Positions 23,651 to 24,332 of a DNA stretch of 64,000 bases are shown one piece after another. Position numbers and translations under genes: made by a program. Positions within the stretch are counted from its first letter, which is position 1. Each line of letters begins with the position of its first letter. This DNA comes from Escherichia coli (GTDB taxonomy: Bacteria; Pseudomonadota; Gammaproteobacteria; Enterobacterales; Enterobacteriaceae): NCBI RefSeq assembly GCF_022846255.1, contig NZ_AP025682.1. The stretch is one strand, 5' to 3'. Under the pieces are notes generated by a model that made no database searches, was not told where the DNA came from, and saw only the letters and a program-made list of their open reading frames with translations.

Positions 23651-23768
23651 CAGAAGCGATCCTCTTATGAGATGTAGGGTGACATGGCGATGCTCATTTC
23701 GTAGCCATAATCTAAAAATATCTACATTTCTGAAAAATGCGCATAAAAGTTACATATTGTTTTCTTAT

Positions 23769-23785
23769 TGTGATCAAAAACAACA
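23769..23785. promoter_or_regulatory. Putative cAMP-CRP site in the csiD promoter
   Basis: TGTGATCAAAAACAACA (one good TGTGA/TCACA half-site) about 120-135 bp upstream of the csiD ATG; csiD is known to be CRP- and sigmaS-dependent. Confidence 0.3.
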
Positions 23786-24178
23786 AATTAATAACAAATA
23801 ATGTGAGGGATAAGAATTGGGTTGAAAGGAAATGAATAATTAAAACAATATATTAAGTGTGCTTATACTCTTTTTCGAACTGGTGGCATTTGTTTAAATG
23901 CTATTTAAACTGCTTTTCCAGAGTTCAACTTACTGAGTTCCGTGTCGACTAATGTGAGTAAGATCAATCGCATCCAACCTATGTTACTTGATGGAATCGA
24001 TAACAATATTAATGAATATACAGATTCCGGGAAGGCTGGCTATGGGGGCAAATTATTCTCTTTCTGGCAACAGGTAAATAACAGTGACCATTTGTCGAGA
24101 AGCTGATACTAAGCTGAGGGATACTGTATATGTCTGGACTGTAATTGGATGAATTCTATTCAGGGCGGGTCAGGACCA

Positions 24179-24204
24179 ATAAAAAAGCCCGCATCAGCGG
24201 GCTT
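24179..24204 (-). terminator. ssrA intrinsic terminator
   Basis: Minus strand AAAGCCCGC-TGAT-GCGGGCTTTTTTATT, about 130 nt downstream of the tmRNA 3' CCA. Confidence 0.7.
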
Positions 24205-24332
24205 TAATGTCATAGGGAGTCGCGACTCCGTTGCGTATCCTTTTTTGTCTCCTCACCGTCTGGTCGGTGTCCTGCTGAGACTTATAACTTCCTGTTTTTG
24301 TTGGTGTAGTCCTTACACCGTCCAATCATGAT

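What the first reader, a model, noticed from the sequence alone, without database searches (positions are those of the whole stretch)
23651..24332. Unoccupied tmRNA (ssrA) integration hotspot: ssrA lies about 680 bp from csiD with no integrase or island
The 3' end of ssrA (CCA at 24333) is followed only by its own terminator (24179-24204) and about 500 bp of AT-rich non-coding DNA before the csiD start at 23650. There is no integrase, no att-like duplication of the ssrA 3' end, and no tRNA gene. In K-12 the ssrA 3' end carries the CP4-57 cryptic prophage and further accessory DNA before csiD is reached, and ssrA is a frequent island target in Enterobacteriaceae. This window therefore shows an empty (ancestral-like or cleanly excised) site.
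Basis: partly seen in the sequence, partly recalled or inferred. Interest (0 to 1): 0.45.

Follow-up and report, generated by a model that had tools for sequence, protein, structure and literature searches.

The report
Empty tmRNA-gene integration site, ordinary
The tmRNA gene (ssrA) here has no prophage or island attached and sits 682 bp from the glutarate-hydroxylase gene glaH/csiD, a normal layout shared by about one in eight complete E. coli genomes, including Nissle 1917 and ST131 strains.

Summary
ssrA lies at 24333-24695 (minus strand). glaH/csiD starts at 23650. The 682 bp between them holds no integrase, no tRNA gene and no copy of the ssrA 3' end.

The spacer has three parts:
- 24178-24332: the native ssrA 3' trailer and intrinsic terminator. 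It is homologous to the DNA that lies beyond the far end (attR) of CP4-57 in K-12.
- 23851-24177: 327 bp of non-coding DNA found only in 1103 of 5426 complete E. coli genomes, always next to glaH.
- 23651-23850: the glaH promoter/operator region shared with K-12.

An unoccupied ssrA is common: 2627 of 5426 complete genomes have one. The exact smpB-ssrA-glaH layout occurs in 719, including Nissle 1917 and an ST131 strain. It also occurs in Escherichia whittamii and Escherichia sp. E1V33, so it is an old arrangement. Relatives with the same spacer carry a P2-like prophage (AR_0017) or another integrase element (IHE3034) at this site, so it is a live attachment site.

K-12's extra ypjA-ygaQ block lies beyond the ssrA terminator. 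It is a second, separate polymorphism and not part of an ssrA-integrated island.

Sequence cannot tell a never-occupied site from a precisely excised one. Verdict: real, correctly read, already known, low interest.

The parts
24909..25391 (-). smpB, the SsrA-binding protein gene, upstream of ssrA
   Evidence: 160-aa ORF. Pfam SmpB PF01668 at E=1.5e-57. The protein is identical in Escherichia sp. E1V33 and E. whittamii.
24333..24695 (-). ssrA (tmRNA gene), intact, with the mature 3' CCA end at 24333
   Evidence: ARAGORN tmRNA with tag ANDENYALAA. Rfam RF00023 at 295.8 bits over the full model. 100% identical to the ssrA of other E. coli genomes with an occupied site.
24333..24347 (-). attB core used by CP4-57-type (P4-like IntA) elements: the last 15 nt of ssrA, CCGCCAGCTCCACCA
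   Evidence: In K-12 the CP4-57 feature starts 15 nt before the ssrA 3' end. A 14-nt remnant (psaA, CCGCCAGCCCACCA) marks attR. No second copy occurs in the window.
24333..24377 (-). attB segment used by a P2-like prophage: the last 45 nt of ssrA
   Evidence: Strain AR_0017 has a spacer 100% identical to the window. It carries a P2-like prophage whose distal end shows a 45-nt duplicate of the ssrA 3' end, placed directly before ATCATGATTGG.
24206..24332 (-). Native ssrA 3' trailer: transcribed, then presumably removed during maturation. It contains three small hairpins.
   Evidence: Homologous to the K-12 DNA beyond attR. Conserved in E. whittamii and Escherichia sp. E1V33. The 161-nt stretch 24172-24332 (trailer plus terminator) folds at -48.8 kcal/mol, z=-3.6. 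One compensatory pair lies in the hairpin GGAGUCGCGACUCC / GGAGCCGCGGCUCC.
24178..24205 (-). Intrinsic terminator of ssrA: AAAGCCCGC-TGAT-GCGGGCTTT followed by a T-run
   Evidence: Terminator scan: 9 pairs, 6 of them G-C. A compensatory G-C to A-U change is present in K-12, GCCCAC...GTGGGC.
23851..24177 (.). Lineage-specific non-coding spacer (the type found in Nissle 1917, ST131 and IHE3034). It occupies the position where K-12 has the ypjA-ygaQ block.
   Evidence: Present in 1103 of 5426 genomes, always beside glaH. No similarity to the K-12 ypjA-ygaQ block. Nothing in the phage collection matches this part: the phage hits cover only the trailer or the promoter end. No Rfam family reaches threshold. 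About 90% conserved in two other Escherichia species, with indels that are not multiples of three, so it is not coding. RefSeq annotates nothing here.
23651..23850 (-). glaH (csiD) promoter/operator region shared with K-12. The two primary CsiR sites lie at 23734-23746 (TTATGCGCATTTT) and 23715-23727 (ATGTAGATATTTT).
   Evidence: Aligns with the K-12 DNA upstream of glaH. The CsiR consensus, TTGTN5TTTT and ATGTN5TTTT six nt apart, comes from PMC6265302. I mapped the sites by eye on the sequence.
22673..23650 (-). glaH/csiD (glutarate dioxygenase), first gene of the glaH-lhgO-gabDTP operon
   Evidence: Pfam CsiD PF08943 at E=7e-151. RefSeq annotation of matching genomes.

Best explanation
This is an unoccupied attachment site (attB) at the 3' end of the tmRNA gene. 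It sits in the chromosomal haplotype shared with Nissle 1917, ST131 and IHE3034.

Shown here:
- ssrA is intact.
- It runs directly into its native 3' trailer and its own intrinsic terminator (24178-24332).
- Next come 327 bp of lineage-specific non-coding DNA.
- Then comes the glaH promoter region with its CsiR operator sites.

Inferred from established knowledge of integration at tRNA and tmRNA genes: elements that use this site carry a tyrosine integrase and an attP holding a copy of the last 15-45 nt of ssrA. Recombination inserts the element at the ssrA 3' end. The element's copy rebuilds the gene, and the native 3' fragment plus trailer is moved to the far end of the element. None of those marks is present here.

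The layout is most likely an old, vertically maintained arrangement and not a recent loss. A past insertion followed by precise excision would look identical.
For: - Identity and integrity of ssrA.
- The trailer and terminator are homologous to the K-12 DNA beyond attR (89.8% over 166 nt).
- No ssrA 3' duplicate and no integrase in the window.
- The same junction occurs in 719 complete genomes, including Nissle 1917 and ST131 strain JJ2434.
- An unoccupied ssrA occurs in 2627 of 5426 genomes.
- The same spacer is occupied by a P2-like prophage in AR_0017, with a 45-nt attR duplicate, and by another integrase element in IHE3034.
- The same smpB-ssrA-spacer-glaH layout, with a spacer about 90% identical, occurs in E. 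whittamii and Escherichia sp. E1V33.
- The glaH-proximal 1 kb is about 92% identical to K-12 against about 97% for the rest of the 23 kb. This fits an old, distinct haplotype.
Against: - Sequence alone cannot exclude a past insertion that excised precisely.
- The 100%-identical spacer in AR_0017 sits next to a prophage. Occupancy therefore changes among carriers of this spacer, although AR_0017's flanking genes are about 2% diverged from the window.
- E. albertii has a K-12-like tRNA(CAT) about 3 kb upstream of glaH. Both arrangements are therefore old or have been exchanged by recombination, and which one is ancestral for the genus is not settled.
- Only the 64-kb window was available, so CP4-57-like elements elsewhere in this genome could not be searched for.
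Confidence: 0.9

Rival explanations
1. The site was once occupied by a prophage or island, for example a P2-like phage as in AR_0017. The element's own integrase and excisionase then removed it precisely and restored attB exactly.
For: Genomes with the same spacer are occupied in about a third of cases: 1103 have the spacer and 719 have the empty layout. AR_0017 has a 100%-identical spacer with a prophage at ssrA.
Against: Nothing in the sequence points to it, and by its nature it leaves no trace. The empty layout is the majority state for this haplotype and is also found in two other Escherichia species. Gain in the occupied strains is therefore the simpler reading.
Confidence: 0.2
2. The short ssrA-glaH distance arose by deletion of a K-12-like arrangement, removing an island plus ypjA-ileY-ygaQ.
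For: K-12 has about 33 kb between ssrA and glaH. E. albertii has a K-12-like tRNA(CAT) upstream of glaH.
Against: The window does not show a simple deletion junction. It has 327 bp unrelated to anything in the K-12 block. That spacer is conserved in two other Escherichia species. The flanking glaH is unusually diverged from K-12, which indicates separate old haplotypes.
Confidence: 0.04
3. The junction is an assembly artefact: a mis-join, or a collapsed island.
For: None found.
Against: 719 complete RefSeq genomes have the same contiguous 2.8-kb stretch, at up to 99.5% identity. The window is collinear with K-12 and strain D8 on both sides.
Confidence: 0.01

Closest known systems
Unoccupied ssrA-glaH junction of E. 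coli strains such as Nissle 1917 and ST131 JJ2434
   Same: Same gene order: recN-bamE-yfjF-ratA-smpB-ssrA, a spacer of about 683 bp, then glaH-lhgO-gabD. The spacer sequence is 98-99% identical.
   Different: Only allelic differences. The flanking genes in the window are about 1% diverged from the best complete genomes.
CP4-57 cryptic prophage at ssrA in E. coli K-12
   Same: Same target gene. The same native trailer and terminator are found on the far side of the prophage in K-12.
   Different: K-12 is occupied: it has intA, a 22-kb element and the psaA attR remnant, and ssrA there uses a terminator supplied by the prophage. The window is empty and uses the native terminator. K-12 also has the ypjA-ygaQ block where the window has a 327-bp spacer.
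P2-like prophage at ssrA in E. coli AR_0017
   Same: Identical spacer and the same attB. It shows what occupancy of this exact site looks like.
   Different: AR_0017 has a CI repressor gene, an integrase gene and a 45-nt ssrA 3' duplicate directly before the trailer. The window has none of these.
Island and prophage integration at tRNA and tmRNA genes (Williams 2002 and 2003, 'Traffic at the tmRNA gene'; Islander database PMC4383910; Bobay et al. 2013, PMC3603311)
   Same: ssrA is described as one of the two E. coli and Salmonella sites with the greatest diversity of integrated elements. The logic of target-gene restoration and a displaced 3' fragment applies here.
   Different: This window is the empty state of that site. 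The Williams 2003 paper itself was not held in the library, so its details were not checked.

Membership tests
tmRNA gene (ssrA) | Match to the tmRNA covariance model, a tRNA-like 3' end with CCA, and a tag-peptide reading frame | tested here: met
   Rfam RF00023 at 295.8 bits against a gathering score of 47, over the full model length. ARAGORN reports the tag ANDENYALAA**.
Unoccupied attB at a tRNA/tmRNA gene | The target gene is contiguous with the same flank that lies beyond attR in occupied genomes | tested here: met
   Window 24182-24347 aligns with the K-12 DNA running from psaA into the post-attR flank at 89.8%. In AR_0017 the same trailer directly follows the attR duplicate.
Unoccupied attB at a tRNA/tmRNA gene | No displaced copy of the target gene's 3' end (no attR) nearby | tested here: met
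   blastn-short and k-mer search of the last 80 nt of ssrA against the whole window found only chance 11-mers, best E=0.86.
Unoccupied attB at a tRNA/tmRNA gene | No integrase gene next to the target gene | tested here: met
   The ORFs within 5 kb on either side are glaH, lhgO, gabD, smpB, ratA, yfjF, bamE and recN. tblastn with IntA and a P2-type integrase gave a best E of 0.45.
Unoccupied attB at a tRNA/tmRNA gene | The site can actually be used by integrases, shown by occupied versions in relatives | tested here: met
   A P2-like prophage in AR_0017 and another integrase element in IHE3034 sit beside the same spacer. About 52% of complete E. coli genomes have ssrA separated from its native trailer.
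CP4-57-type ssrA island | A P4-like integrase (IntA) directly downstream of ssrA, and a psaA-like attR remnant | tested here: not met
   No IntA homologue and no ssrA 3' remnant in the window.
Intrinsic (rho-independent) terminator | A G+C-rich hairpin followed by a T-run, on the strand of the gene, with pairing kept across relatives | tested here: met
   Stem of 9 pairs followed by a T-run at 24205-24178. All pairs are kept in four sequences, with one compensatory change. Termination itself was not measured.
csiD/glaH promoter (sigma-S and cAMP-CRP dependent, repressed by CsiR) | Two primary CsiR sites, TTGTN5TTTT and ATGTN5TTTT, six nt apart, upstream of glaH | tested here: inconclusive
   The second site is intact (ATGTAGATATTTT, 23715-23727). 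The first reads TTATGCGCATTTT, with G to A at 23744, against TTGTGCGCATTTT in K-12. Binding, sigma-S dependence and CRP dependence cannot be tested with these tools.

The most novel reading that the evidence does not exclude
The native ssrA 3' trailer (24178-24332) may be a functional RNA module and not just disposable precursor sequence.

- The 161-nt stretch covering trailer and terminator folds into four hairpins with z=-3.6.
- It keeps its pairing through compensatory changes between E. coli lineages.
- Temperate phages that carry a tmRNA 3' fragment at attP also carry a homologue of it. In phage LLS the copy is 85.5% identical over 158 nt and directly follows the annotated 'tmRNA pseudogene'. 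Phages Ayreon and phiNP also have one.

It could be needed for correct tmRNA 3' maturation or termination, or it could yield a stable by-product RNA. Phages may copy it to avoid damaging tmRNA expression after they integrate.
Probability: 0.12. Interest if true: 0.4.

Novelty: already known. Interest (0 to 1): 0.08.

Why it matters
It matters little. ssrA is a textbook integration hotspot. An empty site is the state of about half of complete E. coli genomes, and this exact layout is standard in the strains that share this spacer. The practical value is as a clean reference attB with its native trailer and terminator, useful for mapping island boundaries in occupied genomes. It also makes clear that K-12's ypjA-ygaQ block is a separate variable segment beyond the ssrA terminator and not part of an ssrA-integrated island.

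Tried and rejected
- Remnants of an island. I searched the window for copies of the last 80 nt of ssrA and for IntA and P2-type integrases. Nothing turned up.
- Origin of the 327-bp middle spacer. A sensitive blastn against the K-12 ypjA-ygaQ block gave only chance hits, E>=1.6. In the phage collection, hits cover only the trailer or the glaH promoter end of the query. Rfam at gathering and at relaxed thresholds gave nothing credible.
- Coding potential of the spacer. The ORFs of 54 and 60 aa on the plus strand are broken by 1-, 2-, 11-, 12- and 19-nt indels in E. whittamii and Escherichia sp. E1V33. They are not genes.
- Mis-assembly. Rejected by 719 identical junctions in complete genomes.
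- Williams 2003, 'Traffic at the tmRNA gene' (PMC142792), is not held in the library. It is cited only through the reference list seen.
- Early on I thought some loci were missing from the script machine. They were stored as multi-record files, which caused some duplicated effort.
- I could not search the rest of this genome for CP4-57 genes, because only the window is available and no complete genome is closer than about 99.1% over 22 kb.

Full report
**Observation**

- ARAGORN and Rfam place a full-length tmRNA gene at 24333-24695 on the minus strand. Its tag peptide is ANDENYALAA and RF00023 scores 295.8 bits.
- The 325-aa ORF at 22673-23650 (minus strand) is GlaH/CsiD (Pfam PF08943, E=7e-151). 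The ORF at 24909-25391 is SmpB.
- An intrinsic terminator on the ssrA strand has its stem at 24205-24184, followed by a T-run.
- The 682-bp spacer is 38.6% GC against 51.0% for the window.
- No tRNA gene lies nearby.
- No copy of the last 80 nt of ssrA exists anywhere in the window beyond chance 11-mers.
- tblastn with K-12 IntA and with a P2-type integrase finds nothing.
- The window is collinear with K-12 core genes from 629 to 23848 and with strain D8 up to 51440. The last ORFs carry ordinary Pfam domains and no integrase domain.

**Anatomy of the spacer**

Comparison with K-12 splits the 682 bp into three parts.

1. 24178-24332 is the native ssrA trailer plus terminator. The aligned stretch, window 24182-24347, is 89.8% identical to the K-12 DNA running from the 14-nt psaA remnant (the attR of CP4-57) into the flank beyond it. 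In K-12 the prophage has therefore pushed the native trailer 22 kb away, and ssrA uses a prophage-supplied terminator there. In the window ssrA keeps its own. The 161-nt stretch 24172-24332 folds into four hairpins (-48.8 kcal/mol, z=-3.6). Across four Escherichia sequences all 32 pairs of the four hairpins are kept, and two show compensatory changes.
2. 23851-24177 is a 327-bp segment with no counterpart in K-12.
3. 23651-23850 is the glaH promoter region shared with K-12.

**K-12's extra DNA is two things**

Between ssrA and glaH, K-12 has CP4-57, which is bounded by ssrA and psaA. It then has the native trailer and terminator, and only then ypjA, pinH', ypjB, ypjC, ileY and ygaQ'. The second block lies beyond the ssrA terminator, so it is not an ssrA-integrated island. 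The window has the unrelated 327-bp segment in its place. This is a replacement polymorphism, not a deletion scar.

A third variant exists. In a divergent strain labelled E. coli (L010), a fimbrial-adhesin-like gene (named by eye from its translation, not by a family search) abuts the same spacer at the position just after the terminator.

**How common is this layout?**

- A 517-nt probe covering ssrA plus trailer and terminator is contiguous in 2627 of 5426 complete E. coli genomes. About half of E. coli therefore have an empty ssrA site.
- The full smpB-ssrA-spacer-glaH stretch is contiguous in 719 genomes. These include Nissle 1917 and ST131 strain JJ2434.
- The 327-bp segment occurs in 1103 genomes, always next to glaH. 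About a third of its carriers therefore have something at ssrA.
- Examples of occupancy: AR_0017 has a spacer 100% identical to the window and a P2-like prophage. The prophage's distal end shows a 45-nt duplicate of the ssrA 3' end directly before the trailer. IHE3034 has a different integrase element.
- The window's site is therefore a working attB that happens to be empty.

**Age of the arrangement**

I scanned species-representative genomes with GlaH and searched the resulting loci for tmRNA.
- Escherichia sp. E1V33 has ssrA 701 bp upstream of glaH, and E. whittamii has it 727 bp upstream. Both have an identical SmpB and a spacer that aligns end to end with the window's, with a mean column identity of 92% across the three sequences.
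- E. albertii has a K-12-like tRNA(CAT) about 3 kb upstream of glaH.
- None of the Pseudocitrobacter, Citrobacter, Salmonella and other loci scanned shows a tmRNA upstream of glaH (10 kb of flank was available for most of them).
- The first 1 kb on the glaH side is only about 92% identical to K-12, against about 97% for the rest of the 23 kb. glaH alleles within E. coli are as far apart as those between Escherichia species.

Together this points to old, distinct haplotypes flanking a variable region. It does not point to a recent deletion or excision. Precise excision leaves no trace, however, so 'never occupied' and 'cleanly excised' cannot be separated by sequence.

**Mechanism**

Shown: the gene is intact, it is contiguous with its native flank, integration marks are absent, and relatives use the same site.

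Inferred from the established model for tRNA and tmRNA-gene integration (Williams 2002 and 2003; Islander, PMC4383910; Bobay et al. 2013, PMC3603311): a tyrosine integrase recombines an attP, which carries a copy of the ssrA 3' end, with this attB. The element's copy restores ssrA and the native 3' fragment is displaced. With no insert, ssrA is transcribed into its native trailer and stops at the terminator at 24178-24205. The precursor is then trimmed to the CCA end.

glaH is driven from its own promoter. From the literature this promoter is sigma-S and cAMP-CRP dependent and is repressed by CsiR at two sites, TTGTN5TTTT and ATGTN5TTTT (PMC6265302). In the window the first site reads TTATGCGCATTTT. 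Whether that change has any effect was not tested.

**Negative results on the 327-bp segment**

- No Rfam family reaches threshold.
- No phage in the collection matches it.
- RefSeq annotates nothing there.
- Its small ORFs are broken by frame-shifting indels in the other species.
- Its conservation, about 90%, is what neutral intergenic DNA between these species would show.

**A side lead**

Three temperate phages (LLS, Ayreon, Citrobacter phage phiNP) carry a homologue of the native trailer. In LLS it directly follows the annotated 'tmRNA pseudogene' and attP, is 85.5% identical over 158 nt, and includes the terminator. By eye, one hairpin in the LLS copy appears to have an extra compensatory pair. 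This suggests the trailer has some value for tmRNA expression. I did not pursue it further.

**Verdict**

The finding is real and was read correctly. It describes the ordinary empty state of a well-known hotspot, in a layout shared by hundreds of complete genomes. Novelty: already known. Interest: low.

Noticed in passing
window 43268-44693: A 1426-bp IS4-family insertion lies between raiA and bamD. It encodes a 448-aa transposase (Pfam Nterm_IS4 plus DDE_Tnp_1) and is flanked by a 13-bp direct repeat, CAGCTCAAGGCTG. It is absent from strain D8.
   Followed up: partly
window 22850-23848 (glaH and its promoter): The 1 kb next to the variable junction is only about 92% identical to K-12, against about 97% for the rest of the 23-kb alignment. 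glaH alleles within E. coli (window, K-12, SCPM-O-B-8794) differ by 6-8%, as much as between Escherichia species.
   Followed up: partly
L004 9874-16664 (Pseudocitrobacter vendiensis) against window 16986-23778: A different genus carries a glaH-lhgO-gabD-gabT-gabP block that is 94.6% identical in DNA to the window over 6.8 kb. The matching stretch starts about 130 bp upstream of glaH and ends at the gabP stop codon. This looks like horizontal transfer of the whole operon between Escherichia and Pseudocitrobacter.
   Followed up: no
window 23734-23746: The first primary CsiR operator site reads TTATGCGCATTTT. K-12 and E. whittamii have TTGTGCGCATTTT, which fits the published consensus TTGTN5TTTT. 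Escherichia sp. E1V33 shares the A. Any effect on repression is unknown.
   Followed up: no
window 24178-24332; L089 2462-2660 (phage LLS); L090 2501-2610 (phage Ayreon): The native ssrA trailer is a structured element with four hairpins and compensatory changes. Homologues sit in temperate phages, in LLS directly after the tmRNA 3' fragment at attP. Integration of such a phage would rebuild the trailer and terminator as well as the gene.
   Followed up: partly
L010 239-1347 (strain SCPM-O-B-8794, labelled E. coli) against window about 24173: In this divergent strain a 349-aa gene that looks like a fimbrial adhesin (by eye, not by a family search), with its own terminator, abuts the same spacer at the point just after where the ssrA terminator lies in the window. 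The terminator-spacer boundary is therefore a second variable junction that does not depend on an att site.
   Followed up: partly
window 23651-24332 against K-12 L085 7863-7938: The tRNA-Ile(CAU) gene ileY, which lies between ssrA and glaH in K-12, is absent from this interval and from the whole window. Whether this genome carries a copy elsewhere is unknown.
   Followed up: no
window about 12028-12102 against L084 10159-12104 (strain D8): Strain D8 has about 1.9 kb here, with a carboxymuconolactone decarboxylase family gene and a PLP-dependent aminotransferase family gene. The window lacks them, and K-12 appears to lack them too.
   Followed up: no
phage record AJ304858.2 (CP-1639) 1304-1502: The deposited record of prophage CP-1639 includes a K-12-type glaH promoter flank, 88.6% identical to window 23651-23848. 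This implies that the prophage lies in the ssrA-glaH interval of its host.
   Followed up: no
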